Of a stretch of DNA of 64,000 bases, positions 17,198-47,176 are shown piece by piece. The first letter of the stretch is position 1. Every line of letters starts with the position of its first letter. The DNA lies in assembly GCA_963666205.1 (NCBI GenBank), contig OY762654.1, positions 1,792,001-1,856,000 on the forward strand, given 5' to 3'. The position numbers were made by a program, and so were the translations under genes. This DNA comes from Synergistales bacterium (GTDB lineage Bacteria; Synergistota; Synergistia; Synergistales; JAFGMB01). The notes beneath the pieces were generated by a model. It made no database searches. It worked only from the letters and a program-made list of their open reading frames with translations, and was not told the origin of the DNA.

Positions 17198-17247
17198 ACC
17201 TTGATAAGAGAGCAGGAATGGAACATAGTTTAAAAGGAGGTGTCAAC

Positions 17248-18669: not shown

Positions 18670-18691
18670 TACTGATTTTATGTCTGCATCT

Positions 18692-18731
18692 TTCCTGACC
18701 CTGATCATACTGATCGTATCAGGGTCAGGAA
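18692..18731 (+). terminator. Hairpin after symporter gene
   Basis: Perfect 14-bp IR TTCCTGACCCTGAT…ATCAGGGTCAGGAA. Confidence 0.6.
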
Positions 18732-18838
18732 TTGTTATTTCCAGAAGACACGCATTTGACATATCAGGTCCTGATAATGCACTATTATTCCATGTAGTAA
18801 AGTTAATGAAGACCACCATGGGGTGTGGAGGGGAAATA

Positions 18839-19531
18839 ATGAATAAAACCGTTAAGGCAGAGGATAGAGCCCACAGGGAAATACTGAACCTCATCATTCA
18901 ACAGAAATTTGGTCCTGGTGAGGTGATAATGGAAGCGGAGCTCACCCCCATGCTTGAAATGAGCAGAACTCCTGTCAGGGCAGCCCTTGGAAGGCTTGCT
19001 ACAGAAGGTCTGATCGAAAAACATCCTGGGACAAAAAGTTATATTATCCCCCCTGTAACTCCTGAAGACCTCAGACAGGTATTTCACGTAAGAAGCGTGC
19101 TTGAATCTGATGCGGCATCGCAAGCCGCTATTTGCGCTTCAGAAAATGAAAAGAAAAGACTCAAGGAGATACTGGAGCAGGAGAACAGCTATGACTTTTC
19201 CAGGAATTCTTTTGATTATTCTGCTTTCAGCCAGTATTTTGAACCTTCCCAGCGACTTCATTTTGCAATCGCTGATGTCTGTCACAATGCCTATCTCAAA
19301 AGATTTATCCTTCCAGCGTACTGGAGGTCTCAGCTCTATTTCTATTTCTTTGACAGTTTCTCTTTTTTGAGCAGGAAACAGGCAGCAGATCCTATTAATA
19401 TCCATCTTGAAAAAAGTGTGGAAGAACACAATCGTATAGTTGATGCAATTCTTTCCAGAGATAGTGAAGGTGCCCGAAAGGCGATGAAGGAACATCTTGA
19501 AACTACCATGTCCATTCTCAGGCCTTTCTGA
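18839..19531 (+). CDS. GntR family (FadR/FCD) transcriptional regulator
   Basis: MSRTPVRAAL…EGL wHTH; FCD-like LH…N…EH…AI…AMKEHL; start at ATG 18839 after GGAGG. Confidence 0.9.
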   Translation: MNKTVKAEDRAHREILNLIIQQKFGPGEVIMEAELTPMLEMSRTPVRAALGRLATEGLIEKHPGTKSYIIPPVTPEDLRQVFHVRSVLESDAASQAAICASENEKKRLKEILEQENSYDFSRNSFDYSAFSQYFEPSQRLHFAIADVCHNAYLKRFILPAYWRSQLYFYFFDSFSFLSRKQAADPINIHLEKSVEEHNRIVDAILSRDSEGARKAMKEHLETTMSILRPF

Positions 19532-19590
19532 AGGAGGTCCCCAAAAAGCAGATATCAGAATAAGAAACAACCAGGGAAAAAGGAAGGATC

Positions 19591-20169
19591 ATGGCCATGA
19601 ATGAAGTGATAAGTAACATCAAAACCCGAAGGAGTATCCGAAAATATCAGCCTGTCCAGGTGGAGCAGGAAAAGCTGGATGCCATTCTTGACGCTGCCAT
19701 ACATGCTCCAAGCGGGAACAACCAGCAGCCCTGGCACTTCCTGTTAGTTCAGGACAATGGCATTATCGAAGATCTGGACCTCAGGATCAGGAAAAGCATG
19801 GCGGAAAGTGGAATTTCCAGGATGGTTAAATTGGGCGAAGATCCGAAGTATCGTGTCTTTTTCCATGCCCCTATAATCGTAATAGTATCTGGCAATGAGA
19901 TTAATTATGCCCCGGAGGGGCACCTCATTCCCTTTGCTGACTGCTGCGCAGCCATACAGAACATGCTCCTGGCTGCCCACAGCCTGGGAGTAGGGTCCTG
20001 CTGGATCGGCCTCGCCCGTTACCTTTTCCGACATCCTGAAAGAATGAAAGATCTACCTATCCCCGAAGGATTCAAACCATATTATGCCGTCTGCCTCGGT
20101 TATCCGGATCCATCCTTCAGGACAAACTGTCCGAAGAGAAAAGAGGGAGTAGTGGATTATCTGAGATAA
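19591..20169 (+). CDS. Nitroreductase family protein
   Basis: TRRSIRKY, APSGNNQQPW, QNMLLAAHSLGVGSCWIG, LGYP. Confidence 0.92.
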   Translation: MAMNEVISNIKTRRSIRKYQPVQVEQEKLDAILDAAIHAPSGNNQQPWHFLLVQDNGIIEDLDLRIRKSMAESGISRMVKLGEDPKYRVFFHAPIIVIVSGNEINYAPEGHLIPFADCCAAIQNMLLAAHSLGVGSCWIGLARYLFRHPERMKDLPIPEGFKPYYAVCLGYPDPSFRTNCPKRKEGVVDYLR

Positions 20170-20198
20170 TGTCAATCAGTTTGTTTATCAATAAAAAT

Positions 20199-20244
20199 TT
20201 CAGAAGCATACTATAGAATATAAAGTTTCCTGTATGCTTCTGAA
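20199..20244. terminator. 13-bp inverted repeat between convergent genes
   Basis: TTCAGAAGCATAC-20 nt-GTATGCTTCTGAA. Confidence 0.55.
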
Positions 20245-20270
20245 TTCTTATAAGTTTGTGTTTAAATTTA

Positions 20271-21161
20271 TTAATCGACAAATTTGGGGAGAAATTCCTT
20301 TTCCAGTTCTCTGAATTGAGGGAACCCCACAAGATCCTTAAAATCTGAGAATGGAACTACGAGGTCTGTCCTCTCAGGAGCTATTTTATCTCCTTTTATT
20401 ACTTCCAGATAGTTGATCATTCCCTGTACAGCTGCAAAGAGTGGTCCCACTGGCAAGCTTATTCGGGCCACTCCCATCTCGCGAAGTTTTTCTATGGCAA
20501 TTAGTGGGGTTTTACCTCCTACCACAGCATCCATAAGATTGATACTTACAGGGGCATTTATTCCCTTGACTATTTCATTTATCTGTTTAGGGGAGCGGGG
20601 AGCTTCTACAAAAATAAGATCTGCCCCTGCTTCTGCATATGCGTTCCCCCTCCGGATAGCTTCATCAACTCCTGACACAGCTATAGCATCAGTCCTTGCA
20701 TTGATTACAAAGTCCGGATCTAAATTTTTCTTTACGGATTTGCAGGCTTTTATCTTGAGGACCATTTCATCAAGAGAGACTATCTGTTTTCCTTCAAGGT
20801 GCCCACATCGTTTAGGAAAAAACTGGTCCTCAATATTCATTCCCGCTGCACCCGCCCTGATAAGCTTTTCTGTTACATATCTCGCATTGATGGCATTGCC
20901 GAATCCAGTGTCAGCATCAGCCATTACCGGAATATTCACTGCATCGATGATATTTCTTGTAAATTCCAGCATCTCACTGAAACTCAAAAAAGCCATGTCA
21001 GGCATTCCAAGATAGGTTGCAGCAAGGCCAAAACCACTGACTTGAAGGGCTTTAAAACCTGCTTTTTCTATCAATTTGGCGGAGAGGGCATCCTGTGCTC
21101 CAGGACAAACAAGGGCCTGTTTATCCAGGAGCATGTTTTTCAATTGCGTTGTTTTTCTCAT
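20271..21161 (-). CDS. Isocitrate lyase/PEP mutase family lyase (2-methylisocitrate or 2,3-dimethylmalate lyase-like)
   Basis: DADTGFG, IEDQ, PKRCGH, ARTDA, AGADLIF motifs. Confidence 0.9.
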   Translation of the reverse strand: MRKTTQLKNMLLDKQALVCPGAQDALSAKLIEKAGFKALQVSGFGLAATYLGMPDMAFLSFSEMLEFTRNIIDAVNIPVMADADTGFGNAINARYVTEKLIRAGAAGMNIEDQFFPKRCGHLEGKQIVSLDEMVLKIKACKSVKKNLDPDFVINARTDAIAVSGVDEAIRRGNAYAEAGADLIFVEAPRSPKQINEIVKGINAPVSINLMDAVVGGKTPLIAIEKLREMGVARISLPVGPLFAAVQGMINYLEVIKGDKIAPERTDLVVPFSDFKDLVGFPQFRELEKEFLPKFVD

Positions 21162-21232
21162 CCGTTTCCTCCTGTTTATATTGACCGTGATGTATGGTTT
21201 TAAGGTTTAATCCGAGTTTCTGTAATCATAAT

Positions 21233-21733
21233 TTATAGTGAATTTCCATAGCCCTTTCTCTTTCTAAGAAAGCCCACGAGGCCACCTTCTTTAAGGATAT
21301 CAATCATAACGTTGGGCATGGATTCTACTCTTGTTTCAGTTCCCTTTGTAATATTGAAAAGGGTTCCTGACTCTACATTGTATTCCAGTTCATCCTCATC
21401 TGATATGGCAGAAGTATCACATTCCACAATAGACAGTCCAACATTTATTGCGTTCCTGAAAAATATTCTGCCGAAGGAAGAGGCTACAATGCAGCCGACG
21501 CCTGCGTTCTTTAGCGCGAGAGGGGCCTGTTCTCTTGACGAACCGCACCCGAAATTTTCTCCCCCTACAACAAAATCACCTTTACTTAGTCTGCTATGAA
21601 AATCAGGGTCCAGATCTTCCATGGCATGTTCGGCTAGAATGGACATGTTTAGAGTTTTTGTATATTTGCCGGCAATAATAAGGTCTGTATTGATATCATC
21701 ACCGTATTTCAGAGCTTTCCCATATAGTTTCAT
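21233..21733 (-). CDS. LeuD/HacB/DmdB-type hydratase small subunit (1)
   Basis: GDDINTDLII, NFGCGSSREQA, RIFFRNAIN. Confidence 0.9.
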   Translation of the reverse strand: MKLYGKALKYGDDINTDLIIAGKYTKTLNMSILAEHAMEDLDPDFHSRLSKGDFVVGGENFGCGSSREQAPLALKNAGVGCIVASSFGRIFFRNAINVGLSIVECDTSAISDEDELEYNVESGTLFNITKGTETRVESMPNVMIDILKEGGLVGFLRKRKGYGNSL

Positions 21734-21735
21734 TT

Positions 21736-22962
21736 TTAGGCCTCCATCTTGCGGGGATCAGTAATTTTCCCTGTCAGGGAACTTGCTGCTGCTGTAGCCG
21801 GAGAGGCAAGATATATACAGGCTTTATTATTTCCCATCCTTCCCTTGAAGTTTCTGTTCGTTGTTGAGAGAACATTTTCATTGTCTCCAGGAATTCCATT
21901 ATGTGTACCAACGCAGGCTCCACAGCCTATAGGAGCCAGGGTTGCACCGGCATTGAGAAGAGTGGAAATGATTCCTTCTTCAATGGCCTGTAACAATATT
22001 TTTTTTGAAGCTGGAGCGACCAGAAACCTTACAGAGGGGTGGATTTTCCTACCCTCAAGGATTTTTGCCGCAATCCTGAGATCATCGACCCGGGCATTTG
22101 TACAGCTTCCCAGGAATATCTGTTGGATTGGAATCCCTTCAACCTCAGGAATTGAACAAACATTATCTACCGTATGGGGTTTTGCTACCATAGGGGAAAG
22201 TTTTGAGAGATCAACTTCCACATATCTCTCTATCACAGCTCCGGCATCTGATTGAAGGCCTGTCGAGGAATCACAGATAACACCGCATTTCGCTCCCATC
22301 TCTACCACCATATTGCAAATGGTCATTTTTTCAGAAAGAGAGATCGCTTCAAGGAAGTCTCCATGAAATTCTATAGCTTTATATACAGCACCCTGTGCAC
22401 CTAAAGTTCCGACTATTGAAAGAATAAGGTCTTTGGCAAAGACTCCATCTGGTAGATTTCCATTGAGGTTTATCTTGATAGTCTGTGGAATCCTGAACCA
22501 TGATTTACCTGTAAACATGGCTGCAGCGAGATCAGTTGAACCGACACCAATGGAGATAGTCCCGACTGCTCCATAGGTACATGTATGGGAATCAGCACCA
22601 AGGACAAGATCTCCTGCTTTAACGTACTCATTTTCTATAATAAGTTGGTGACATATCCCTTCCCCAATGTCATGAAACAGGCATGCCTGTTTCATGGAGA
22701 ATTCCCGAATGAGACTGTGCAGGTTGGCAATATTCTGATTCGGAGCGGGGGTGGCATGGTCAAGAATAAACACAGTGCCTCGGGGTTTTGCGATATAGAG
22801 ACCTCCCATTTCTTCGAAAGCCTTGATCGCAAGAGGGCCTGTAGTGTCAGAAGCCATAACAAGATCAACATCACATATGTGGTATGACCCCGACCTGGCG
22901 AGGGATCCTGAGTGTTTAGAAAAAACCTGTTCAGTTATTGTAAGGGGAGTAACCTTGTTCAT
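21736..22962 (-). CDS. LeuC/HacA/DmdA-type aconitase-family hydratase large subunit (1)
   Basis: DH, GICHQ, DSHTCT, GSCTN, CGAC, TNRNFKGRMG; three Fe-S Cys present. Confidence 0.9.
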   Translation of the reverse strand: MNKVTPLTITEQVFSKHSGSLARSGSYHICDVDLVMASDTTGPLAIKAFEEMGGLYIAKPRGTVFILDHATPAPNQNIANLHSLIREFSMKQACLFHDIGEGICHQLIIENEYVKAGDLVLGADSHTCTYGAVGTISIGVGSTDLAAAMFTGKSWFRIPQTIKINLNGNLPDGVFAKDLILSIVGTLGAQGAVYKAIEFHGDFLEAISLSEKMTICNMVVEMGAKCGVICDSSTGLQSDAGAVIERYVEVDLSKLSPMVAKPHTVDNVCSIPEVEGIPIQQIFLGSCTNARVDDLRIAAKILEGRKIHPSVRFLVAPASKKILLQAIEEGIISTLLNAGATLAPIGCGACVGTHNGIPGDNENVLSTTNRNFKGRMGNNKACIYLASPATAAASSLTGKITDPRKMEA

Positions 22963-23723
22963 TTGTTCCCATCCTTGTAACCAAGGGATCTTGATATATC
23001 TCCGGTTGCTTTAAGAATGAGATCAACAAATTGATTGACACGTTCAGGGGTAAATCTTATTGTTGCTCCTGAGATGGTTAATCCTGCAACTACAGTTCCA
23101 TCCCACCTTCTGATAGGGGCAGATACGGTTGAGGCCCCAGGTATTCTTTCACCATGTGAAACAGCAAAACCTTTTTTTATGATTTCGTCCAACTGCTTGT
23201 TTATTTCAATCATAGTCTGGTCTAACTCTCCCAGATTGTCTTTAATTATTTTATGAGCGTCCTCTCTATTCATATATGCGAGCAGAAGCTTTCCGGATGC
23301 AGCCGAATATAAGGGGAGTCTTTTCCCTATTGTTGCAGAATATCTCAAGGTATGAGAGCTGTCGATCTTATCTATGCAGAGCCTGGAACCTTCCATCACA
23401 ATATTGATCTCTATGGTTTCCTGGGTAAGCATTGATAGTTCTTCCATGACTGGTCTGGATACTTCCCGGAGTCTTAGTTTGGATTCAGCAACCTTCCCAA
23501 GCTGGAAAAGAGCCATACCTAGAGAATATTCCTGTGTGGCCTGATCTCGTTGGAGGAAGGCTTGATCATGTAGAGATGCTACAAGTCGGATAATTGTTGT
23601 TTTTGGTAATTTTACAGATTCAACTATTTCAGAAAGCTGCATCTGAGGTTTATCAAAACTGAAACACTTAAGGATGCTTAAAGCTCTTTCGACAGATCTT
23701 ACCGGGTTATGAGAGTTTTTCAT
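22959..23723 (-). CDS. IclR family transcriptional regulator
   Basis: SVERALSIL…LPKTT..RL HTH; GKRLPLYSAASGK, VSAPI. Confidence 0.92.
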   Translation of the reverse strand: MKNSHNPVRSVERALSILKCFSFDKPQMQLSEIVESVKLPKTTIIRLVASLHDQAFLQRDQATQEYSLGMALFQLGKVAESKLRLREVSRPVMEELSMLTQETIEINIVMEGSRLCIDKIDSSHTLRYSATIGKRLPLYSAASGKLLLAYMNREDAHKIIKDNLGELDQTMIEINKQLDEIIKKGFAVSHGERIPGASTVSAPIRRWDGTVVAGLTISGATIRFTPERVNQFVDLILKATGDISRSLGYKDGNK

Positions 23724-23784
23724 TTTATATCTCCTCTCTGAGTTAAGTCCATTAAATGGTTTTAAATACCATAATAATAGTTAG

Positions 23785-23814
23785 ATTATAGGTATGTTCC
23801 AGGGCATTTGTCAA
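23785..23814 (-). promoter_or_regulatory. Sigma70-type promoter for the iclR-leuC-leuD-lyase arm
   Basis: Minus strand TTGACA(23814-23809)-18 bp-TATAAT(23790-23785). Confidence 0.65.
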
Positions 23815-24031
23815 ATAGATAGGATTGTAATATTGCTAACATATAGATTTAAAAAGTGCAAACTTGACAAAAACGCTATGCCATAGGATATTATACCCAT
23901 GGTCTATAGAACGGGAACAAAGTCCATCTAATGGACCTAATCCACTTGTAACAAAATTCATCTTGATTTGAGATAAGTTATTAAGGAATGAGAAACATAA
24001 AATTAAAGTATGTCAGGGAGGTAAGTGAAAT

Positions 24032-24967
24032 ATGAGGAAAAGTATTTTGGCGTTCTTGATGATGTCTTTGGCTATTGTGGTTATCTTTCCTCTAACGTCA
24101 GGAGCGGCTCCGTTTCCAGAGAAGGAGATAAATTTTATCGTAGCGTATAATCCTGGTGGGGGTTCTGATACGACTGCAAGAATTTTTGCGAAGTTTGCTA
24201 ACAAATATCTTGCTAAACCCATCATAATTGTCAATTATCCTGGCGGTGGTGGTTCCATAGGTCAGCAGAGGGGTGCTCTTGCCGAGCCCGACGGATATAC
24301 CCTAACCCTTATTACTACGTCTCTTACTATTCATCCTTTAACAAAGAAGCTTCAGTATGATTATTCTTCATTCAAGCCTGTAGTACAGTTAACGAATGTC
24401 CCGGACATTCTCATGGTAAGAGGTAATGACGAGGATCTAAATTCTGCTGAAAAATTCCTTGCATATGCCAAAGAAAAACCTAATGCCATAACTGTATCTA
24501 CTTCCGGCGTAGGAGCCACAGATCATTTTACTGCCCAGGTACTTCAGGAGGAGGCTGATATTAAACTTACTCTTGTTCCATACGGTGCAGATGCAAAGGT
24601 GGGTCTTCTTGGCGGACATGTCAGTGCTGCAGTGGGGGGTCCCGAGGATGTCTTTGATCTTCCCGATCTGAAGGCCATACTTGTTTTTGCTGAGGAGAGG
24701 CTCGATACTCTTCCTGATGTTCCCACTGCCAGGGAATTGGGGATAAAATGGGAAAGCTCAGTATGGAGAGGAATTGCTGTTCCCAAGGATACTAATGCTG
24801 AAGTAATTGAATATCTTGGGAAAATATGTAAACAGACAATGGATGATCCTGAGTATCAGAAAACGATGGCCGATCTTGGACTAGGTTTCCAATATCTCGA
24901 TGGGCCTTCTTTTGCGAATAAAATAAAGAATCAGGCTGACACTTACAAGCGCCTTATGGGCAAGTAG
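24032..24967 (+). CDS. tctC: Tripartite tricarboxylate transporter substrate-binding protein (TctC/Bug)
   Basis: Signal peptide; PGGGSDTTAR, N.PGGGG, PDGYT, LPDVPT. Confidence 0.92.
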   Translation: MRKSILAFLMMSLAIVVIFPLTSGAAPFPEKEINFIVAYNPGGGSDTTARIFAKFANKYLAKPIIIVNYPGGGGSIGQQRGALAEPDGYTLTLITTSLTIHPLTKKLQYDYSSFKPVVQLTNVPDILMVRGNDEDLNSAEKFLAYAKEKPNAITVSTSGVGATDHFTAQVLQEEADIKLTLVPYGADAKVGLLGGHVSAAVGGPEDVFDLPDLKAILVFAEERLDTLPDVPTARELGIKWESSVWRGIAVPKDTNAEVIEYLGKICKQTMDDPEYQKTMADLGLGFQYLDGPSFANKIKNQADTYKRLMGK

Positions 24968-25057
24968 TCGTAGCAATATTATGAAAACATGGGTTGGCGA
25001 AGGTCAAGTAAACTTTGCCAACCTTTTTTCTAGAAAGCGAGGAAGATCTAAAATATT

Positions 25058-25501
25058 ATGTTACGTAAAAATGGAGAATTAATAATATATGGAGTTTGTG
25101 TCATTCTTTGCGTATTTTTTCTTTTTGTTATCAAAGATCTTCCGGCAACGGCACGAAACTTTCCTCAATTCAGTTTAATATCCCTGATTGTTGTAGCCGG
25201 TTTGGGTTTTATCAAAACATTACTGTCTCTGCAAAAATCTGATAAAGAGAAGGCAGCTGCGGATTGTGGAGGAGAAAGGAAATTCCTATTTACCCTTCTA
25301 TTATCAGTTCTTTTTGTTTTTTCAATGAAATATCTTGGGTTTTATACAGCATCTTTACTGTACCTTACATCACTTATGTATCTCTTAAATATCAGGAAGA
25401 TCAAGGTTGTCTTAATGGCGAACATTGTGTTTCTTACAGGGATTTACCTGGTATTTTCTCTTTTTCTCAACGTTCCTGTTGAGAAAGGGATATTTTTTTA
25501 A
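25058..25501 (+). CDS. tctB: TTT small membrane subunit TctB
   Basis: 4-5 TM, LGF motif, C-terminal VPVEKG; lies between tctC and tctA. Confidence 0.85.
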   Translation: MLRKNGELIIYGVCVILCVFFLFVIKDLPATARNFPQFSLISLIVVAGLGFIKTLLSLQKSDKEKAAADCGGERKFLFTLLLSVLFVFSMKYLGFYTASLLYLTSLMYLLNIRKIKVVLMANIVFLTGIYLVFSLFLNVPVEKGIFF

Positions 25502-25516
25502 GAGTCACAGGAGGAA

Positions 25517-26998
25517 ATGATATTGAGTATTCTTTCAGCTTTTGCTACTGCTTTTTCCTTTTGGGGTCTTGTTGCGTCTTTTGGTGGAGTTTTTGGTGGT
25601 ATTGTCATAGGTTCACTCCCGGGCTTATCAGCTACAATGGCAGTAGCTCTCCTGATACCGGTTACCTTTGCCATGTCTCCAGGCATAGCTCTTATCCTTC
25701 TTGTAGGGATTTACTGTGGTTCTGTTTATGGTTCGTCCATTTCTGCCATTCTTATAGGTGTTCCAGGAACACCTTCGGCTGCGGCTACCTGGATGGATGG
25801 TTATCCCATGACAAAGAACGGCGAGGCATCAAAGGCACTGGGTGGTTCAATTATAGGATCTTTTATTGGGGGTATCTTCAGTGCTTTCGCTCTAGCTCTC
25901 CTTGCCCCTGTCCTGGCCAAAGTTGCCCTTAAGTTCGGGCCTCCTGAATATTTCTCTTTGGCCATTTTCGGACTTTCAATAATAGTCAGTCTGGTTTCCA
26001 AATCTTTCCTCAAAGGCCTAGTGTCTGCTTTACTTGGTCTAATCCTTGCATCAGTCGGGATGGATCCGATCTTGGGAGAGGTCCGAATGACCTTTGATAG
26101 CATAAACTTAATGAGTGGTATACCCTTTGCCTGTGCAATAATTGGTATTTTCGGTTTTTCTCAAGTTCTCCAGCTCTGTCAACAGAATATCATTGCAGAA
26201 TCATCAGAAAATGATATTTCAGATAGAAGGCTTCCCAACCTGAAAGAAATATTCAAATTCACCCCAACTATTATCAGATCTTCTATTATTGGCACTATTA
26301 TTGGAATAATACCAGGTGCTGGAACAAGTATGGCTTCTTTTATAGCCTATAACGAAGCTAAACGTTTTTCAAAGAACAGAGAAAAATTTGGCACAGGGTA
26401 TCTGGAAGGAGTAATTGCGCCAGATACAGCAAATAATGCTGTAACAGGTGGATCAATGGTTCCTATGCTTGCTTTAGGTGTTCCCGGGAACGGCGTTTCA
26501 GCCATTTTCATTGGAGCCCTTATGATCCATGGAATAGCCCCAGGTCCATTACTTTTTAAAAATCATGCGGACCTTGTCAATACAATCTTTCTTGGTTTTT
26601 TTGTAGCAAATTTCTTCATGCTCATAATTGGGTTGCTGGTCGCTAAATATATGTCCAGGGTTACTCTTATCCCGACGGGTATTCTTACTCCGATGATATG
26701 TGTACTTTGTGTCATAGGATCCTATGCCATCCGTAATAATCTTTTTGATGTATGGGTAATGCTTTTCTTTGGATTGGGAAGCTATTTCCTTTCAAAGTTT
26801 AAATTTTCTCTCATACCCTTTGTTTTGGCCTTGATATTAGCTCCCATTGCTGAAAAATCATTCTACCAGTCTCTTCTTATTTCTCAGGGTAGTTATTCAA
26901 TCTTTTTCACCAAGCCCATAAGTCTTGTCCTGATTGTACTGGCAGTCCTTTCTGTTGTAATACCACTTTTCAAAAAAGGACTTAAAGAACAGGAATAA
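25517..26998 (+). CDS. tctA: TTT large membrane subunit TctA
   Basis: GSLPGL, PGTP, DGYPM, FGPPEYF, ANNA, LGVPG. Confidence 0.92.
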   Translation: MILSILSAFATAFSFWGLVASFGGVFGGIVIGSLPGLSATMAVALLIPVTFAMSPGIALILLVGIYCGSVYGSSISAILIGVPGTPSAAATWMDGYPMTKNGEASKALGGSIIGSFIGGIFSAFALALLAPVLAKVALKFGPPEYFSLAIFGLSIIVSLVSKSFLKGLVSALLGLILASVGMDPILGEVRMTFDSINLMSGIPFACAIIGIFGFSQVLQLCQQNIIAESSENDISDRRLPNLKEIFKFTPTIIRSSIIGTIIGIIPGAGTSMASFIAYNEAKRFSKNREKFGTGYLEGVIAPDTANNAVTGGSMVPMLALGVPGNGVSAIFIGALMIHGIAPGPLLFKNHADLVNTIFLGFFVANFFMLIIGLLVAKYMSRVTLIPTGILTPMICVLCVIGSYAIRNNLFDVWVMLFFGLGSYFLSKFKFSLIPFVLALILAPIAEKSFYQSLLISQGSYSIFFTKPISLVLIVLAVLSVVIPLFKKGLKEQE

Positions 26999-27034
26999 AC
27001 AATATCTGAATGCAGCCCGAAAGGTAGGGATCAA

Positions 27035-28297
27035 ATGGGTAAGACCTTTGCGGAAAAAGTTTTGGGAAATGCAGCGGGAAAAGATGTTGAACCAGGTGAG
27101 ATAGTAAATGTCTACCCTCACTTTTGCATGAGTCATGACAATGCTGCTGCTGTAAGAAAAATATTCAGCAGGATAAATACTGCAAAAGTCTGGGACCCTG
27201 AGAGGCTAGTATTTATCCTGGATCATGCCATACCTGCACCAAGTGACAAACATGCATTGAACCACCAACAGATCAGAGAATTTGTAATGCAACAGAATCT
27301 TGTCCATTTCTATGATGTTACCAGTGAGGGTGGAGTATGCCATCAGGTGATGTGTGAAGAAGGGTATGCTCTTCCGGGGTTGATAAATGTGGGAACTGAT
27401 AGTCATACTTGTACCCATGGTGCCTTTGGGACATTTTCTACCGGAATTGGCAGAACTGAAATGGCAGCAGTCTGGGCAACAGGGCATATATGGTTCAGAG
27501 TGCCAGAATCGATCAAGATAATTCTTGAAGGATCTTTTGCTCCAGGGGTAGTGGTTAAAGATCTTATTCTCCGGATCATTGGTGATATAAAAGCTGATGG
27601 AGCCGATTATCGTTCTCTGGAGTTCCATGGTTCTGCCGTAGAAAAGATGAGCCTTGCAGAGAGAATGACCCTGTGCAATATGGGTATCGAAATGGGTGCC
27701 AAAAATGCTGCTTGTCCTCCAGATAAAAAGGTTCTAACACATATAGAAATATGTGCCAAGAGGAATGACTGGAAGGTTCTTTGGGCGGATGACAATGCAA
27801 AATATGCCCGAATACTTAATTATGATCTTGGAACAGTCGAACCAGGGGTAGCTAAACCCCATACGGTAGATAATTACTCTCAAGTTTCTGTGTTGTTTGG
27901 AACTCCAATCCACCAGGCATTCATAGGAACCTGTACCAACGGTAGATTCGAAGATCTTTACGCTGCTGCTCAGATCCTTAAAGGTCAGAGAGTATCAGTA
28001 AGAACTATCGTTATACCTGCCTCATGGAAGGTATACAGAAAAGCTATGAAGGAAGGGCTCCTTGACATATTCCTGGATTCAGGTTGTGTTATCGCAAATC
28101 CCGGATGTGGGCCCTGCCTAGGAAATCATGAAGGAGTATTGGCTCCTGGAGAGGTATGTGTATCTACTGCCAATCGCAATTTCAGAGGTCGAATGGGCAA
28201 CAGAGACAGCTATATATACCTGGCAAGTCCGTTAACTGTAGCCGCGTCTGCACTGAAGGGAGAAATTGCTGACCCAAGAGAGGTGCATAAGGGATGA
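27035..28297 (+). CDS. LeuC/HacA/DmdA-type hydratase large subunit (2)
   Basis: SHDN, GVCHQ, DSHTCT, GTCTNGR, CGPC, NRNFRGRMG. Confidence 0.9.
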   Translation: MGKTFAEKVLGNAAGKDVEPGEIVNVYPHFCMSHDNAAAVRKIFSRINTAKVWDPERLVFILDHAIPAPSDKHALNHQQIREFVMQQNLVHFYDVTSEGGVCHQVMCEEGYALPGLINVGTDSHTCTHGAFGTFSTGIGRTEMAAVWATGHIWFRVPESIKIILEGSFAPGVVVKDLILRIIGDIKADGADYRSLEFHGSAVEKMSLAERMTLCNMGIEMGAKNAACPPDKKVLTHIEICAKRNDWKVLWADDNAKYARILNYDLGTVEPGVAKPHTVDNYSQVSVLFGTPIHQAFIGTCTNGRFEDLYAAAQILKGQRVSVRTIVIPASWKVYRKAMKEGLLDIFLDSGCVIANPGCGPCLGNHEGVLAPGEVCVSTANRNFRGRMGNRDSYIYLASPLTVAASALKGEIADPREVHKG

Positions 28298-28788
28298 ATA
28301 TAACCGGTAAGGTGTGGAAATATGGTGACAATGTAGATACTGACGTGATTTTTCCCGGGAAATATACGTATACAATTACCGATGAAAAGGAAATGGGAAA
28401 ACATGCACTTGAAGACCTTGATCCTGACTTTGTTTCCAATGTGCAGCCCGGAGATATTATTGTTGGAGGGAGAAACTGGGGGTGCGGATCTTCCAGACAG
28501 CAAGCCGTAACTTGTTTAAAAGTGAATGGGATTGCTGCTATTGTTGTTAAGGGAGTTTCCAGAATCCATTACAGGAACGCTATCAATGAAGCTCTTCCTG
28601 TCATAGTCTGTCCTGAAGCTGTAGATTCTATAGAGCAGGGAGATACTATTAGTATCGATCTTTCTAACGGAAAAGTCTACACGAGAAAAGGTGAATTTTC
28701 ATTTAAACCCTTTCCTCCTGTAATTACTGGTCTTATTGAAAGTGGCGGACTCATCCCTTTTGTTAATGAGAACCTTGGTAAAAGATAG
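28294..28788 (+). CDS. LeuD/HacB/DmdB-type hydratase small subunit (2)
   Basis: GDNVDTDVIFPG, NWGCGSSRQQA, RIHYRNAIN. Confidence 0.9.
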   Translation: MNITGKVWKYGDNVDTDVIFPGKYTYTITDEKEMGKHALEDLDPDFVSNVQPGDIIVGGRNWGCGSSRQQAVTCLKVNGIAAIVVKGVSRIHYRNAINEALPVIVCPEAVDSIEQGDTISIDLSNGKVYTRKGEFSFKPFPPVITGLIESGGLIPFVNENLGKR

Positions 28789-28820
28789 ATTAAGAATTCT
28801 ATATCATCCTGGCGATTGAA

Positions 28821-28860
28821 TAAAGAAGGGCGAAGCCTGTAACTGCTTCGCCCTTCTTTA
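28821..28860. terminator. Bidirectional terminator
   Basis: Perfect 16-bp IR TAAAGAAGGGCGAAGC…GCTTCGCCCTTCTTTA. Confidence 0.85.
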
Positions 28861-28899
28861 TTCTGTAGTTTCTGTCTTCAATTATTTGAAACATAAATA

Positions 28900-30012
28900 T
28901 TATTTCAATGTTTCCCTTGCGGCCCTGGTAAGATTGGCAAGACCTTCCTTCAGGTCCGGGATATGAGGCCATCCGTAACCCACCCTCATGAAGCGGCGGG
29001 GCATCTCGAACCAGTGTCCCGGTCCGACGTAGGTTCCGTATTTTTCGTTGAGGATCCGGTAAAAGTCGTCCATGTCCATATTCAGTCCTGAAGATATCCT
29101 CGGGAAACATACGACCCCGCCCGAAGGTTCCACCCATTCGAATTCAGTCTGGTTTTTCATCCAGTCCCTGATAATCGAGAAGGCTTCAGAAATGTGAAGG
29201 TTGTTCGATTTGAGCCATTCTTCCCGGCCCAGAAGGGCTCTGTAGGCAATCTCCTCGTCCACTACGCTGCCGCAGATACCGATCTGCTCCTTCGCGGAAA
29301 GCAGGGTTTCCATAAGTTCACGATCCCTGCAGACTATCCATCCTGTCCTTATTCCCGGTATCCCATAGGTTTTTGAAAGGGATGATACACTTATGGCCTT
29401 TTTTGACAGGGATGCAGCCACCGGCAGTGGTTCTCCGAAGGTCATTTCCCTGTATGTCTCGTCCACAAGCAGACGACATCCTTTATGTTCCACCAGATCA
29501 ATGGTGTTTTCCAGGTCATTTATCGTCATTAACGTACCTGTGGGGTTATGGGGAGAGGTCAGGCTCACATACTTTGTTTCGGGTCGGATCATGGAAGCTA
29601 TGCGGCTGGTATCAAGGGCAAAACCTTCTTCAAAGACCAGGTCCAGAAAACTGATATCTGCCCCTATGGCCCGGGGAGTTTCTATATTGGTGGAGTAGTT
29701 GGGTCTCTCCACAACCAGATGATCCCCCTTTTCGAGAAGGGACGTTGCAATGATGAATAGGGCCCCGGCAGCCCCTGCTGTTATCAGTACATCATCTGGA
29801 GTAATGTTTTCACCGGATATGCTGGCTATTTTTTCCCTGAGCCCGGGATGGCCCGCGTGGTCACCGTAGAACAGGGTCATATCCTCCAGGGTAAATCCAA
29901 GGTCAGATATCTTTCTGTCTCTGACGGAACTCTCAGTAAGGTTGTAACGGATGAGATCATATCCGAGCTGTTCAGGTGATTCCTTTTCAATAGGCATGCG
30001 AAGGTATTTCAA
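28900..30012 (-). CDS. PLP-dependent aminotransferase class I/II
   Basis: PHNPTG, VDETY, SLSKTYGIPGIRTGW; TTG start. Confidence 0.9.
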   Translation of the reverse strand: MKYLRMPIEKESPEQLGYDLIRYNLTESSVRDRKISDLGFTLEDMTLFYGDHAGHPGLREKIASISGENITPDDVLITAGAAGALFIIATSLLEKGDHLVVERPNYSTNIETPRAIGADISFLDLVFEEGFALDTSRIASMIRPETKYVSLTSPHNPTGTLMTINDLENTIDLVEHKGCRLLVDETYREMTFGEPLPVAASLSKKAISVSSLSKTYGIPGIRTGWIVCRDRELMETLLSAKEQIGICGSVVDEEIAYRALLGREEWLKSNNLHISEAFSIIRDWMKNQTEFEWVEPSGGVVCFPRISSGLNMDMDDFYRILNEKYGTYVGPGHWFEMPRRFMRVGYGWPHIPDLKEGLANLTRAARETLK

Positions 30013-30041
30013 AGTGAGTCCCCCTTTTCTGTACTGCTATA

Positions 30042-31091
30042 TCAGTATCCGCAGGTCAATGTCATGAGATCGCTCAGCACTCCATAAGCCGTATCATACA
30101 AACTGGGGTCTTCCTGGGTTATCAGTACGGGGCCCATGAGGTCCGTTTCTATACGTATCACGGCCCCTCCACCCGTGACGGAATTATAATGGTGTCCGCC
30201 AGGAATCTCTTCAACTTTTACGCTTGCCCTGACCTCTTCCTCTTCTCTCCATGCCCTGCAGATAAGCTTGAGCCTTTTTCCTGAATCGACAGCTTTTCTC
30301 ACATCATCAGTGCTCAGGCCGGTAATACCCTTCCTGTCGACGTCGAAAGGTGTAATTGATGCATCCATGAGGGCATTTGCAAGAACGGATATTTTTGCAG
30401 AGGGGTCCCAGCCTTCCAGATCGTGGCGGGGGTCTGCTTCAGCAACTCCTATTTCCTGGGCTTCCTTAACAGCACTCTCAAGATCCTGCCCTTCTTCCAT
30501 CCTGGTGAGGATGTAGTTGGTGGTTGAATTAAGGATCCCGTCAATTCCTTTAACGGTACATCCTTTCAGGGAACAGCGGGCCATGTTGAAGACGGGAGCG
30601 CCATCCATTACGGTGGTCTCGTAGAGAAAGACAGAGCCCTTATTTTCAGCCAGGGTATTCAGTTCACGAAAGGCGAAGGCCACTGGCCCCTTGTTGGCCG
30701 TTATGGCATGGCTGCCTCGCTCCAGGGCTGTCCTTATGTGACTTATGGCTGGTTCTCCCTTTTTTTCAATGCTAAGGGTAGAAAGTTCAACAAGAACGTC
30801 ATAGTCAAGGGTACGGGCGGCCTCTATCCCGGTCATGGAAGTGATGTCCGGGTTTGAAGGAGAAAAGTTTCCCAACTCTTCCACTTCCTCAAGGGCTTTC
30901 TGTAGATCGACACCACTCTTTTCATTAACCAGGCTCCCTTTGGATCTCCCTATAATACCCACTACTTTGAGATCCAGAGGTGCAAGCCCGGGAAAACTGT
31001 TCTTTTCTCTGGTCAGTATACGGGCTACCTGTTGACCCACGTTACCGAAACCAATAAACAGGGCTTTAAGGGTTTTTGTGTGTTTATCCAT
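30042..31091 (-). CDS. hom: Homoserine dehydrogenase (short form, no ACT domain)
   Basis: GFGNVG, TANKGP, GILNSTTNYIL, GVAEADP..DLEGWD. Confidence 0.85.
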   Translation of the reverse strand: MDKHTKTLKALFIGFGNVGQQVARILTREKNSFPGLAPLDLKVVGIIGRSKGSLVNEKSGVDLQKALEEVEELGNFSPSNPDITSMTGIEAARTLDYDVLVELSTLSIEKKGEPAISHIRTALERGSHAITANKGPVAFAFRELNTLAENKGSVFLYETTVMDGAPVFNMARCSLKGCTVKGIDGILNSTTNYILTRMEEGQDLESAVKEAQEIGVAEADPRHDLEGWDPSAKISVLANALMDASITPFDVDRKGITGLSTDDVRKAVDSGKRLKLICRAWREEEEVRASVKVEEIPGGHHYNSVTGGGAVIRIETDLMGPVLITQEDPSLYDTAYGVLSDLMTLTCGY

Positions 31092-31093
31092 CT

Positions 31094-32338: not shown

Positions 32339-32436
32339 TCAGATTCCTCCCCGTAGAATAGTGTTTGAAAAAAGCGATAATTCAGATGCCTCTACTTTTA
32401 TAACACATCAGGGGAATTATGAGGGTAAATCTCATT

Positions 32437-32483
32437 AAAAAAGGGCTGGAACAGTGGTAACTTCAATGCCCACTTTCCAGCCC
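32437..32483 (-). terminator. Rho-independent terminator of aldolase operon
   Basis: Minus strand GGGCTGGAAAGTGG…CCACTGTTCCAGCCC then T6. Confidence 0.7.
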
Positions 32484-32535
32484 CGCTTAATTACTGGATT
32501 GATGAAGTCCACACCTGATATTTCCAGGAAGGATA

Positions 32536-33519: not shown

Positions 33520-33555
33520 CTGATAAATGTCAACTCCTTCAAATAACCGGTGATC

Positions 33556-35073: not shown

Positions 35074-35097
35074 GGTAGTTCACCTCTAAATCCACCT

Positions 35098-35526: not shown

Positions 35527-35585
35527 CCTTAAAACCCCTTTTGTATCAGAGGGGCAGGGGAATACCCCCTGCCCGCTGTTAATAG

Positions 35586-36566: not shown

Positions 36567-36743
36567 TCTTTTACACCTCCTGAGAATTATTACAAAAATC
36601 TTTTTCATACAGGAATCTGATCAGACCATTCCTCATTGGCCAGCCGTTCCTGCGATAAAACCGCTTCTCCTCTATGATTCTGCAACAAATAAAGCACCTT
36701 TACTCACTACCACCTCCTAAACGCTATATGGACTCCAATTGTT

Positions 36744-37946: not shown

Positions 37947-37971
37947 GCTCCTTTAACTGACTGTTAAAATC

Positions 37972-44346: not shown

Positions 44347-44385
44347 AAACGGTGTCCCCCTTTCACAGTAATATCAATTTCTATA

Positions 44386-45762: not shown

Positions 45763-45795
45763 TTTTACAACTCCTCCATGTACTTGTTTTTCTTT

Positions 45796-47160: not shown

Positions 47161-47176
47161 TTTGATCTCTATCCCT

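What the first reader, a model, noticed from the sequence alone, without database searches (positions are those of the whole stretch)
20271..28788. Divergent IclR locus with two different LeuCD-type hydratases, an ICL-family lyase and a TTT: unknown branched di/tricarboxylate catabolism
Seen: iclR-large-small-lyase on the minus strand and tctCBA-large-small on the plus strand, closed by hairpins on both sides. Both large subunits keep three Fe-S Cys. No LeuA/LeuB-type synthase or dehydrogenase is in the locus, and the DNA looks more AT-rich than its neighbours by eye. Established: one DmdAB hydratase plus 2,3-dimethylmalate lyase acts in nicotinate fermentation, and converting 2-methylcitrate to 2-methylisocitrate needs two stereochemically distinct (de)hydration steps before the PrpB lyase. 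Inference: an imported acid such as 2-methylcitrate, homocitrate or dimethylmaleate is isomerised by two sequential hydratases and cleaved to a 2-oxo-acid plus an acid.
Basis: partly seen in the sequence, partly recalled or inferred. Interest (0 to 1): 0.7.

Follow-up and report, generated by a model that had tools for sequence, protein, structure and literature searches.

The report
Two-hydratase, one-lyase acid catabolism locus
A regulated gene cluster that appears to import a branched organic acid, reposition its hydroxyl group with two iron-sulfur hydratases and split it with a lyase; the same gene kit recurs in unrelated anaerobes, but its substrate is still unknown.

Summary
The minus strand carries iclR, large and small hydratase subunits (L1, S1) and a lyase. 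The plus strand carries tctCBA and a second pair (L2, S2), with hairpins at both ends. The true leuCDBA operon lies elsewhere, so this locus is catabolic.

The gene set recurs: an Oscillospiraceae genome has IclR-L1-S1-lyase-L2-S2 with a TRAP transporter, and two further loci join L1S1 with L2S2.

- **S1:** all 15 orthologues found share the loop motif GKYTKTL.
- **L2/S2:** a copy of a housekeeping pair (L4/S4) that sits with an IDH-like gene across the order.
- **Lyase:** keeps all catalytic residues but scores below the PrpB cutoff. It has Q, F, M, S and F where E. coli PrpB has Y43, G47, T212, L234 and R241. Its nearest solved structure is the petal death protein.

Best reading (0.45): a split isomerase (3-substituted malate, then substituted maleate, then (R)-2-substituted malate) followed by CoA-independent cleavage to a 2-oxo acid plus acetate or another short acid. 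Candidate substrates are the citraconate/citramalate or aconitate/citrate families.

The AT-richness is not significant. The substrate is unproven. This is a new variant of known enzyme kinds, of moderate interest.

The parts
20194..20249 (.). Inverted repeat (18-nt arms, 20-nt spacer) between the converging nitroreductase gene and the lyase gene. It is the likely end of the minus-strand operon.
   Evidence: 89% complementary arms. Not flagged by the terminator scan.
20271..21161 (-). PEP-mutase/isocitrate-lyase-superfamily C-C lyase (296 aa) with a KRCGH catalytic loop. It belongs to a distinct, non-PrpB clade.
   Evidence: Pfam PF13714 at 200.7 bits. prpB equivalog 242 bits against a cutoff of 354.4. 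Best solved match is petal death protein 1zlp; aligned to E. coli PrpB 1mum. Pocket signature.
21233..21733 (-). Hydratase small subunit S1 (166 aa), LeuD/DmdB subfamily, recognition loop AGKYTKTL, GSSRE motif.
   Evidence: TIGR02087 at 194 bits against a cutoff of 109; the leuD equivalog is below its cutoff. Loop aligned to 3vba, 2pkp and 1v7l. Loop conserved in orthologues.
21736..22962 (-). Hydratase large subunit L1 (408 aa), an archaeal-type LeuC/HacA-subfamily [4Fe-4S] hydro-lyase.
   Evidence: NF001614 at 514 bits, above its cutoff; the LEU2 equivalog at 409 against 610.65 is not met. Cysteines C287/C347/C350. Tree position.
22959..23723 (-). IclR-family regulator (254 aa), first gene of the minus-strand operon. 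Its stop overlaps the L1 start by 4 bases.
   Evidence: PF09339 and PF01614. 49% identical to the IclR gene between the lyase and L1 in L061.
23724..24031 (.). Divergent control region (30.8% GC). Minus-strand promoter-like site at 23814..23785 (TTGACA-18-TATAAT, 12 of 12). Plus-strand site at 23864..23892 (10 of 12). Perfect palindrome GTCCATCTAATGGAC at 23922-23936, plus a degenerate copy at 23747-23761. These are candidate IclR operators.
   Evidence: The palindrome count at up to 2 mismatches is not above chance (4 found, 3.35 expected), so the operator role is inference only.
24032..24967 (+). TctC-type periplasmic solute-binding protein with an N-terminal signal-like segment.
   Evidence: PF03401 at 142 bits. 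Solved relatives are TTT binding proteins with various ligands.
25058..25501 (+). TctB small membrane subunit.
   Evidence: PF07331.
25517..26998 (+). TctA large membrane subunit.
   Evidence: PF01970 at 526.8 bits.
27035..28297 (+). Hydratase large subunit L2 (420 aa). It is a paralogue (71-73% identity) of the housekeeping L4 that sits in the conserved L3S3-L4S4-IDH-like cluster of the order.
   Evidence: Cysteines C300/C358/C361.
28294..28788 (+). Hydratase small subunit S2 (164 aa), recognition loop PGKYTYT shared with S4, GSSRQ motif.
28818..28863 (.). Perfect 19-bp stem, 8-nt loop hairpin between the plus-strand operon and the converging aminotransferase operon. Terminator-like.

Best explanation
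This is an IclR-controlled, probably substrate-inducible catabolic module for a substituted maleate/malate-type di- or tricarboxylate.

Proposed steps:
1. The TTT transporter (TctCBA) imports the acid.
2. The two LeuCD-type [4Fe-4S] hydro-lyases act as a split isomerase. L2/S2 shares its recognition loop with the housekeeping pair L4/S4, which sits beside an IDH-like dehydrogenase. L2/S2 would interconvert the 3-substituted malate (secondary alcohol) and the cis-unsaturated acid.
3. L1/S1, with its invariant YTKT loop, would hydrate the unsaturated acid to the (R)-2-substituted malate (tertiary alcohol).
4. The PEP-mutase/ICL-family Cys-lyase would cleave that alcohol without CoA into a 2-oxo acid plus acetate or another short monocarboxylate. 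Its pocket resembles the petal death protein rather than PrpB.

The most likely concrete substrates are:
- the C5 family: 3-methylmalate, citraconate, (R)-citramalate, giving pyruvate + acetate;
- the tricarboxylate family: isocitrate-like, cis-aconitate-like, citrate-like, giving oxaloacetate + acetate.

What is shown: gene content, family membership, catalytic residues, recurrence of the gene set, loop and pocket signatures. What is inferred: the order of steps, which hydratase does which half-reaction, and the identity of the substrate.
For: (1) The anatomy is that of a catabolic operon pair: back-to-back promoter-like sites, a regulator, a transporter and terminal hairpins. A separate leuCDBA operon exists.
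(2) The gene set recurs in other lineages with a different transporter or C-C-cleaving enzyme. L073 has IclR-L1-S1-lyase-L2-S2-TAXI-TRAP between unrelated genes. L082 has L2-S2, IclR-L1-S1-lyase and TctC-TctB. L110 has TctCBA, L1-S1-L2-S2.
(3) The lyase travels with a LeuCD-type hydratase across phyla (Synergistota, Armatimonadota, Bacillota, Ignavibacteriota, WOR-3/Stahlbacteria, Planctomycetota).
(4) The S1 loop (A/P)GKYTKTL is present in 15 of the 16 small subunits whose best match is S1. This indicates one conserved specificity.
(5) L2/S2 carries the same loop as L4/S4. The L3S3-L4S4-IDH-like cluster is present in all 6 relatives sampled, by gene labels in 4 of 6 and by both loop types in 6 of 6. 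It holds the only aconitase-family proteins besides LeuCD, L1, L2 and L5 in this 100%-complete genome. Sequential paired hydratases are therefore a standing habit of this lineage.
(6) The lyase keeps all metal-binding and catalytic residues (56 of 56 aligned sequences for D55, D82, D84, E111, K117, C119, R156). Relative to E. coli PrpB it has Q for Y43, F for G47, M/F for T212, S for L234 and F for R241. This signature is near-invariant in the 31 relatives at 56% identity or above. By recalled structural work, those positions line the succinate and methyl pockets, so the changes argue for a small or hydrophobic C3 substituent and a roomier C2 pocket.
(7) In L112, L114 and L124 the S1-type hydratase is flanked by an HMG-CoA-lyase-like enzyme and a family-III CoA-transferase. 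This is the CoA-dependent way of cleaving a 2-substituted malate with release of an acetyl unit, as recalled for (R)-citramalyl-CoA lyase. It fits a tertiary alcohol as the L1/S1 product.
(8) The same-genus genome has the lyase with only a transporter and an IclR, as expected if the lyase substrate is itself an importable hydroxy acid.
Against: No substrate was tested.
- The roles of the lyase pocket residues and of the small-subunit loop are recalled from papers I could not open. Only the residue differences themselves are shown.
- The S1 loop has Lys where methanogen homoaconitase has Arg (YLRT in 2pkp). That favours an anionic side chain (tricarboxylate). The hydrophobic lyase pocket favours an alkyl or absent C3 group. 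The two hints fit together only if the extra carboxylate sits on C2.
- A single LeuCD or aconitase normally catalyses both half-reactions, so the need for two enzymes is unexplained.
- Only 3 of 34 S1-type loci carry L2-type genes.
- L061 and L071 have L1S1 plus the lyase without any second hydratase.
- L110 has both hydratases but an RraA-type aldolase and no PEPM lyase within the 17.8 kb held.
- In L082 the L2-type pair sits next to a second, different lyase.
Confidence: 0.45

Rival explanations
1. One reading: an imported 2-methylcitrate (or homocitrate) is dehydrated and rehydrated by the two hydratases to 2-methylisocitrate. A PrpB-type lyase then cleaves it to pyruvate + succinate.
For: The transporter belongs to the tricarboxylate family. 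In 20 of 34 S1-type loci, MmgE/PrpD-family genes (the 2-methylcitrate dehydratase family) accompany L1S1 and the lyase. The best NCBIfam hit of the lyase is prpB. Lys in the S1 loop sits at the position of the Arg of homoaconitase HacB.
Against: The lyase scores 242 and 206.7 bits against the prpB cutoffs of 354.4 and 353. It has F at R241, M at T212 and Q at Y43 of solved E. coli PrpB, a signature conserved in its clade. There is no prpC or prpE nearby. PrpD-family proteins also include isomerases that are not dehydratases (PMC12290011, passages). As recalled, two anti-specific aconitase-type enzymes cannot replace the syn-specific PrpD step on the natural (2S,3S) isomer.
Confidence: 0.12
2. 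A DmdAB/Dml-like dialkylmaleate route. L1/S1 hydrates dimethylmaleate (or ethylmethylmaleate) to the 2,3-dialkylmalate. The lyase cleaves it to pyruvate (or 2-oxobutyrate) + propionate. L2/S2 only broadens the substrate range.
For: The enzyme families match the last two steps of nicotinate fermentation (recalled). The nearest solved lyase is the petal death protein, recalled to prefer 2-ethyl-3-methylmalate. The pocket is hydrophobic. One public source names an orthologue '2,3-dimethylmalate lyase'. A ~480-500 aa amidohydrolase recurs next to the module in L061, L069, L071, L112 and L114, with an isochorismatase-family protein in L061. These could feed maleamate- or maleimide-type precursors into the pathway.
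Against: No mutase, isomerase or other nicotinate-pathway gene accompanies the module; my guess that the two extra genes in relatives were Mgm and Mii was disproved by Pfam, which shows a TAXI/TRAP transporter. The HMGL-like/CoA-transferase variant suggests an unsubstituted C3. The polar Lys/Thr loop of S1 is unexpected for a purely dialkyl substrate. The E. barkeri sequences could not be compared.
Confidence: 0.15
3. The two arms are separate modules that merely share a promoter region. TctCBA-L2S2 would import a tricarboxylate and feed it to the housekeeping L3S3/L4S4/IDH-like route. IclR-L1S1-lyase would degrade a different acid.
For: L2/S2 is a copy of the housekeeping L4/S4. L1S1 plus lyase occur without L2S2 in most loci. 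The lyase occurs alone with a transporter in the same genus. In L082 the L2-type pair adjoins a different lyase.
Against: Under this reading the minus arm would have no transporter of its own. L1S1 and L2S2 are directly adjacent in one orientation in L073 and L110, and within 3 kb in L082, in different lineages. That is far more than chance for genes each present once or twice per genome.
Confidence: 0.2
4. The pairs are biosynthetic isomerases (leucine, isoleucine, lysine or coenzyme B type chain elongation), or the 'lyase' is really an oxaloacetate decarboxylase/hydrolase, as some database names say.
For: Subfamily models for IPMI/homoaconitase are met. Public names include '3-isopropylmalate dehydratase' and 'oxaloacetate decarboxylase'.
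Against: The equivalog models for LeuC, LeuD, HacA and HacB are all below cutoff. A complete leuCDBA exists elsewhere. There is no synthase or dehydrogenase in the locus. The transporter, IclR and patchy distribution fit catabolism. The catalytic Cys loop KRCGH of C-C lyases is intact.
Confidence: 0.04

Closest known systems
2,3-Dimethylmalate dehydratase DmdAB plus 2,3-dimethylmalate lyase Dml of Eubacterium barkeri nicotinate fermentation (recalled; the paper could not be opened)
   Same: A catabolic LeuCD-type two-subunit Fe-S hydratase makes a tertiary 2-substituted malate. A PEP-mutase/ICL-family lyase then cleaves it without CoA.
   Different: Here there are no nicotinate-pathway genes. 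There is a dedicated transporter and an IclR, plus a second hydratase pair (or PrpD-family genes in relatives). Sequence relationship to DmdA/DmdB/Dml was not testable.
2-Methylcitrate cycle lower part: PrpD (or AcnD/PrpF), AcnB and PrpB
   Same: Dehydration, then rehydration, then ICL-family lyase. Relatives even carry MmgE/PrpD-family genes beside L1S1 and the lyase.
   Different: The lyase fails the PrpB equivalog cutoffs and differs at PrpB positions Y43, G47, T212, L234 and R241. The hydratases are LeuCD-type, not AcnB/AcnD. There is no PrpC or PrpE. An importer takes the place of an internal cycle.
Petal death protein of carnation (PDB 1zlp), a broad (2R)-alkylmalate lyase/oxaloacetate hydrolase
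   Same: It is the best solved match to the lyase (208 bits, full length). Both share the GGKTP segment and hydrophobic residues at the PrpB T212 and R241 positions.
   Different: It is a plant enzyme with no hydratase partner. The window's clade has its own signature (Q40, F44, S235, F242 and a 3-residue insertion at 212-214).
Methanocaldococcus jannaschii isopropylmalate/citramalate isomerase (small subunit 3vba) and homoaconitase (small subunit 2pkp)
   Same: These are the closest solved small subunits. Both share the archaeal-type architecture. The substrate-recognition loop of the small subunit sets specificity (PMC7308503, passages citing Jeyakanthan 2010).
   Different: The loops are YTKT (S1) and YTYT (S2), against YLVY and YLRT. 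The context is catabolic, not biosynthetic.
Thermus/yeast lysine pathway, where homoaconitase performs only one half-reaction and an aconitase the other (recalled)
   Same: It is a precedent for splitting a hydroxy-acid isomerisation between two aconitase-superfamily enzymes.
   Different: It is biosynthetic and followed by a dehydrogenase, not a lyase.
Glutamate fermentation via mesaconate and (S)-citramalate with CitDEF-type citramalate lyase (PMC4682846, passages)
   Same: C5-branched dicarboxylate is split to pyruvate + acetate in anaerobes. Class I fumarase, citE/citF and DUF1446 genes appear next to the module in some loci.
   Different: That route uses a fumarase-type mesaconase and an ACP-dependent lyase on the (S) enantiomer. 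This module would take the cis (maleate-type) and (R) branch without CoA or ACP.

Membership tests
Methylisocitrate lyase PrpB (NCBIfam TIGR02317 / NF008455 equivalogs) | Whole-protein score above the curated cutoff | tested here: not met
   242.0 against 354.4 and 206.7 against 353. Relatives from L018, L042, L061, L073 and L132 also score below cutoff.
Methylisocitrate lyase PrpB | Pocket residues of solved E. coli PrpB (Y43, G47, T212, L234, R241); their roles are recalled | tested here: not met
   The alignment to 1mum gives Q, F, M, S and F. Conserved in the 31 relatives at 56% identity or above: Q 31, F 30, M/F 29, S 31, F 31.
PEP mutase / isocitrate lyase superfamily C-C lyases | Family model above cutoff, Mg-binding Asp/Glu, and the K(R/K)CGH loop with catalytic Cys | tested here: met
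   PF13714 at 200.7 against 31.5. D55, D82, D84, E111, K117-R-C119-G-H121, R156 and E186 are all present.
Biosynthetic LeuC/LeuD (TIGR02083, TIGR02084 equivalogs) | Score above the equivalog cutoff, and genomic association with leuA/leuB | tested here: not met
   L1 scores 409 and L2 452.5 against 610.65. S1 scores 179.5 and S2 170.9 against 245.85. The pair beside leuB and leuA lies elsewhere and scores 597 and 231, the highest of the six pairs but itself just under these cutoffs.
Archaeal-type IPMI/homoaconitase subfamily (NF001614, TIGR01343, TIGR02086; TIGR02087 LeuD/DmdB) | Score above the subfamily cutoff | tested here: met
   L1 scores 514/485/496 and L2 545/528/520, against cutoffs 385/385.7/410. 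S1 scores 194 and S2 171, against 108.95.
Aconitase superfamily Fe-S hydro-lyases | Three Cys cluster ligands in the large subunit and the GSSR(E) substrate motif in the small subunit | tested here: met
   GSCTN/CGAC in L1 and GTCTN/CGPC in L2. GSSRE in S1 and GSSRQ in S2.
Methanogen homoaconitase HacB / IPMI LeuD specificity classes | Recognition-loop motif YLRT (HacB) or YLVY (LeuD) | tested here: not met
   S1 has YTKT and S2 has YTYT at the aligned positions. Neither class applies.
E. barkeri DmdAB/Dml nicotinate-fermentation module | Neighbouring mutase, isomerase, enamidase and other pathway genes | tested here: not met
   None is in the window locus or in the relatives' clusters, where the extra genes are a TAXI/TRAP transporter.
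E. barkeri DmdAB/Dml nicotinate-fermentation module | Orthology to the characterised DmdA, DmdB and Dml sequences | not testable with these tools
Tripartite tricarboxylate transporter (TTT) | TctC, TctB and TctA all present, adjacent and above Pfam cutoffs | tested here: met
   142.2, 44.3 and 526.8 bits.
IclR-family regulator | HTH_IclR plus the IclR_C effector domain | tested here: met
   41.2 and 117 bits. No equivalog (KdgR, BhcR, PcaR and others) reaches its cutoff.

The most novel reading that the evidence does not exclude
The module is a previously undescribed, CoA- and ACP-independent route that splits the cis/(R) branch of branched acids. A dedicated pair of half-reaction hydratases (an obligately split isomerase) would deliver (R)-citramalate, or citrate itself, to a new subfamily of ICL-superfamily lyase, giving pyruvate (or oxaloacetate) + acetate. 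That would supply the missing genes for bacterial citraconate/(R)-citramalate catabolism, or a thioester-free citrate lyase. It would also identify the conserved L3S3-L4S4 pairs of Synergistales as a two-enzyme aconitase.
Probability: 0.3. Interest if true: 0.7.

Novelty: new variant of a known kind. Interest (0 to 1): 0.5.

Why it matters
Hundreds of public proteins in these clades carry only automatic names: '3-isopropylmalate dehydratase', 'isocitrate lyase/PEP mutase family', 'oxaloacetate decarboxylase', 'methylisocitrate lyase'. Metabolic reconstructions of anaerobic digesters, subsurface communities and gut communities therefore probably miscount them as leucine biosynthesis or propionate metabolism.

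The recurring kit of importer, one or two LeuCD-type hydratases and a distinct lyase marks an organic-acid fermentation route whose substrate nobody has named. The route for citraconate and (R)-citramalate is not covered by the characterised Pseudomonas itaconate cluster (PMC9875883, passages).

The S1 loop (YTKT) and the lyase pocket signature give simple sequence markers for finding members and designing assays. The paired-hydratase habit of this lineage bears on how aconitase-type isomerisations can be divided between enzymes.

Tried and rejected
1. I guessed that the ~350 and ~640 aa genes between S1 and the lyase in relatives were methylitaconate isomerase and methyleneglutarate mutase. 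Pfam and NCBIfam show a TAXI binding protein and a fused TRAP permease, so the guess was rejected.

2. The palindrome GTCCAT-N3-ATGGAC as an IclR operator: there is one perfect copy in the control region. At up to 2 mismatches the window has 4 matches against 3.35 expected, with 39 of 100 shuffles reaching 4. This is suggestive only.

3. AT-richness as a sign of transfer: z = -1.13, not significant.

4. I tested whether paralogous lyases with the Y...R pocket are bona fide PrpB, to serve as an in-session reference. None of the 13 lyases tested reaches the cutoff; the five Y...R ones score 256-296 against 354.4. The contrast therefore rests on the alignment to solved E. coli PrpB.

5. The HMGL-like gene 3.7 kb right of the locus is only 21% identical to the HMGL-like lyases that flank L1S1 in L112 and L124. 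There is no link.

6. AtuA family in the own genome: no match, but the control genomes were silent too, so this is uninformative.

7. Searching the rest of the L110 record for a lyase: the record is not held.

8. Expression: no RNA holder is listed for the locus, and I laid no reads.

9. The careful maximum-likelihood tree did not finish in 300 s. I used the quick tree with SH-aLRT support only.

10. Papers I could not open: Jeyakanthan 2010, Narayanan 2008, Alhapel 2006. Liu 2005 and Narayanan 2009 were seen only as reference-list entries.

11. One literature search was wasted on a prefix clash.

12. Searches turned up no paper describing this gene kit. This covers only the held open-access library.

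13. The scan's own notes hold nothing like it by sequence or by words.

Full report
**Observation**

On the minus strand:
- an IclR regulator, 22959-23723;
- a LeuC-type large subunit, L1, 21736-22962;
- a LeuD-type small subunit, S1, 21233-21733;
- a PEP-mutase/isocitrate-lyase-family protein, 20271-21161.

On the plus strand:
- TctC, TctB and TctA, 24032-26998;
- a second large subunit, L2, 27035-28297;
- a second small subunit, S2, 28294-28788.

All of them match their families above Pfam's cutoffs. The two hydratase pairs are old paralogues, 43% and 40% identical. Both large subunits keep the three cluster cysteines. S1 has GSSRE and S2 has GSSRQ.

The 308-bp intergenic region has a 12-of-12 promoter-like site pointing left and a 10-of-12 site pointing right. 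It also holds one perfect palindrome, which is not statistically compelling. Inverted repeats close both ends, at 20194-20249 and 28818-28863.

The locus is only mildly AT-rich: 41.8% GC against 44.5% for the genome, z = -1.13.

**Not biosynthesis**

The genome is a single 2.95-Mb contig, scored 100% complete. It encodes six LeuC-type large subunits and five PEP-mutase-family lyases. No other aconitase-family protein and no PF00285 citrate synthase was found.

One pair sits in a leuC-leuD-leuB-leuA operon. It scores highest on the LeuC and LeuD equivalog models, though just under their cutoffs. L1, L2, S1 and S2 pass only the broad archaeal-type IPMI/homoaconitase subfamily models. They fail every equivalog model.

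**A genome rich in such modules**

- Another locus, L012, reads IclR-citE-citF-citG-HD-L3-S3-L4-S4-IDH-like-NhaC.
- Another has TctCBA-L5-S5 and a KHG/KDPG-aldolase-like gene.
- Others have TRAP transporters with one or two lyases.
- The window itself holds three TTT systems. It also holds the genome's only PrpD-family gene, in an operon with malic enzyme, a class II fumarase/aspartase-type lyase, an adenylosuccinate-lyase-like gene and an aminotransferase.

Earlier notes of this scan call the genome Acetomicrobium (Synergistota). The named relatives of the lyase are indeed mostly Synergistota.

**Conservation**

L1 has no close orthologue in the same-genus genome G001. The best match there, at 47%, is the L4 orthologue.

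The best matches in the order, at 51-53%, lie in a conserved cluster: AtuA-PrpD-DUF4387-PrpD-PrpD, divergent from L1-S1-TAXI-TRAP-lyase-NrpR-like. In that cluster the lyase is 74-75% identical to the window's.

A scan of the species collection with the lyase gave 80 loci, which I annotated by script and by Pfam:
- The PrpD-type cluster is in Synergistota and Armatimonadota.
- A bare lyase-L-S unit, sometimes with an IDH-like gene, sits among unrelated genes in WOR-3, Stahlbacteria, Planctomycetales and others.
- IclR-linked versions are in Ignavibacteriales (L061: lyase-IclR-L1-S1, with IclR 49%, L1 58% and S1 62% identical), in Sedimentibacter (L071) and in Oscillospiraceae (L073, L082).
- L073 carries the window's whole gene set in one direction, IclR-L1-S1-lyase-L2-S2-TAXI-TRAP, between unrelated genes.
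- L082 has an L2-type gene (split into two ORFs), an S2-type gene, IclR-L1-S1-lyase and TctC-TctB, plus a second, different lyase.

A metagenome scan with L1 gave 21 loci:
- L110 has TctCBA, a dehydrogenase and an RraA-type aldolase, then L1-S1-L2-S2.
- L105 and L106 have TctA, the lyase (68%), L1-S1 and citE-citF.
- L112, L114 and L124 have an HMG-CoA-lyase-like gene, L1-S1 and a family-III CoA-transferase.

**Census of S1-type loci**

A tblastn census with the S1 loop as marker listed 38 rows, which reduce to 34 distinct loci after removing four duplicates (L019=L025, L021=L026, L022=L029, L024=L039). Within 10 kb of the loop:
- 28 of 34 have the lyase. Twenty-three of those 28 (the rows L025-L082) were fetched with the lyase as query. 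Among the 15 rows fetched with L1 as query (duplicates included), 9 have it.
- 20 of 34 have PrpD-family genes.
- 3 of 34 have a second LeuCD-type large subunit (L073, L082, L110).
- 5 of 34 have TTT genes.

G001 has the lyase (70%) with an IclR-like gene, an unscanned 318-aa ORF and a TRAP permease, and no hydratase.

**Signatures**

Aligned to solved small subunits, S1 reads YTKT and S2 reads YTYT. At the same place homoaconitase HacB has YLRT and the isopropylmalate/citramalate isomerase subunit has YLVY. That this loop sets specificity I take from passages of PMC7308503, which cite work I could not open.

(A/P)GKYTKTL is present in 15 of the 16 small subunits whose best match is S1, across three phyla. 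The exception is a distant betaproteobacterial protein.

S2 shares PGKYTYT with S4. S4-type loops reading (P/A)GKYTYT occur in all six relatives sampled, inside an L3S3-L4S4-IDH-like cluster that usually has citE/citF beside it.

L2 and S2 are 73% and 67% identical to the L4 and S4 of another family of the order. They are 71% and 58% identical to their own genome's copies, so they are not a recent local duplicate.

In the quick tree:
- G000 L1 groups with the IclR-linked L1s of Ignavibacteriales and Bacillota (SH-aLRT 99).
- That group is sister to the PrpD-linked L1s (91).
- L2 groups with L4 and with the L2 of L073 (100).

The lyase, by contrast, is of the Synergistota/WOR-3 type. It has a three-residue insertion that the Bacillota and Ignavibacteriales lyases lack. 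The locus is therefore a mosaic.

**The lyase**

Its best solved match is the carnation petal death protein, 1zlp. E. coli PrpB and A. niger dimethylmalate lyase score lower.

Against E. coli PrpB it keeps D58, D85, D87, E115, KRCGH, R158, F186, E188, N210 and P236. It has Q for Y43, F for G47, M for T212, S for L234 and F for R241, plus the insertion after N210.

In 31 relatives at 56% identity or above the counts are: Q 31, F 30, M/F 29, insertion 29, S 31, F 31. The five most distant paralogues have Y and R instead. None of the 13 lyases tested reaches the PrpB cutoff.

From recalled structural papers, these positions line the succinate-binding and methyl-binding pockets. If that is right, the C3 substituent is small or hydrophobic and the C2 pocket is roomier than in PrpB.

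**Reading**

The simplest scheme that fits all contexts is this:
1. L1/S1 makes an (R)-2-substituted malate from a substituted maleate.
2. The lyase cleaves it. Where the lyase is absent, an HMGL-like lyase with a CoA-transferase, or an RraA-type aldolase with a dehydrogenase, would do the cleavage.
3. L2/S2 supplies the unsaturated acid from another isomer. PrpD-family proteins would do this in most Synergistota; that family includes isomerases as well as dehydratases (PMC12290011).

The transporter, the citE/citF and PrpD neighbours, and the Lys in the S1 loop lean towards tricarboxylates. The lyase pocket, the HMGL-like variant, the class I fumarase neighbours and the DUF1446 link to methylaspartate clusters (PMC4682846) lean towards the C5 citraconate/citramalate family. 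I cannot decide between the two.

An amidohydrolase of about 480-500 aa recurs beside the module in five loci. This hints that in some organisms the acid comes from an amide or imide.

**Verdict**

This is a real, conserved, regulated catabolic module built from known enzyme families in a combination and specificity class that I did not find described. The substrate is unknown.

Noticed in passing
G000:C1:6000-24000 (locus L012); relatives L126-L131: The cluster IclR-citE-citF-citG-HD-L3-S3-L4-S4-IDH-like-NhaC is conserved across families of the order, with both small-subunit loop types found in 6 of 6 relatives sampled. The genome has no other aconitase-family protein and no PF00285 citrate synthase. 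The two pairs may together be a split aconitase feeding an isocitrate-type dehydrogenase.
   Followed up: partly
window 43162-52925 (minus strand): An operon of TctC-TctB-TctA, malic enzyme, a class II fumarase/aspartase-type lyase, the genome's only MmgE/PrpD-family gene (45796-47160), an adenylosuccinate-lyase-like gene, an aminotransferase and possibly an MFS carrier. The metagenomic locus L110 has fumarase, malic enzyme, PrpD, TTT and L1S1-L2S2 all contiguous.
   Followed up: partly
window 28900-38817 (minus strand): A third TTT system (33556-36608) sits in an operon with an HMGL-like lyase (32536-33519), two aminotransferases, a homoserine-dehydrogenase-like gene and an RpiR regulator. 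It converges on the locus. The HMGL-like protein is unrelated (21% identity) to those flanking L1S1 elsewhere.
   Followed up: partly
L061, L069, L071, L112, L114: An amidohydrolase of about 480-500 aa (Amidohydro_1/3) lies directly beside the lyase or the L1S1 pair in five loci from different lineages. L061 also has an isochorismatase-family protein there. This suggests amide or cyclic-imide precursors such as maleamate- or maleimide-type compounds.
   Followed up: no
L018 and about 20 related loci (for example L025-L035): A conserved divergent set of AtuA/DUF1446, DUF4387 and three MmgE/PrpD paralogues lies next to L1-S1-TAXI-TRAP-lyase, followed by an NrpR-like regulator, in Synergistota and Armatimonadota. 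The function of the AtuA/DUF4387 pair is unknown.
   Followed up: partly
G000:C1:588000-603000 (locus L016): TctCBA is followed by a hydratase pair L5/S5 and a 326-aa KHG/KDPG-aldolase-like gene. S5 lacks the GSSR motif, and its loop is unlike all the others.
   Followed up: no
G000:C1:1746000-1762000 (locus L013): A GntR regulator, DctPQM and two tandem PEP-mutase-family lyases (301 and 320 aa, 40-43% identical to the window's lyase).
   Followed up: no
L041, L042, L051-L057, L060, L063, L064, L074: In WOR-3, Stahlbacteria, Planctomycetales and Aminicenantes genomes, a lyase of this clade (52-71% identical) is followed directly by a LeuCD-type pair. Twice it is preceded by an IDH-like gene. 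These units sit among unrelated housekeeping genes, with no transporter or regulator. There the unit may serve central metabolism.
   Followed up: partly
window 16103-20169: The left flank holds an octopine/nopaline-dehydrogenase-family gene, a sodium:solute symporter, a GntR/FCD regulator and a nitroreductase-family gene. This looks like another small catabolic unit.
   Followed up: no
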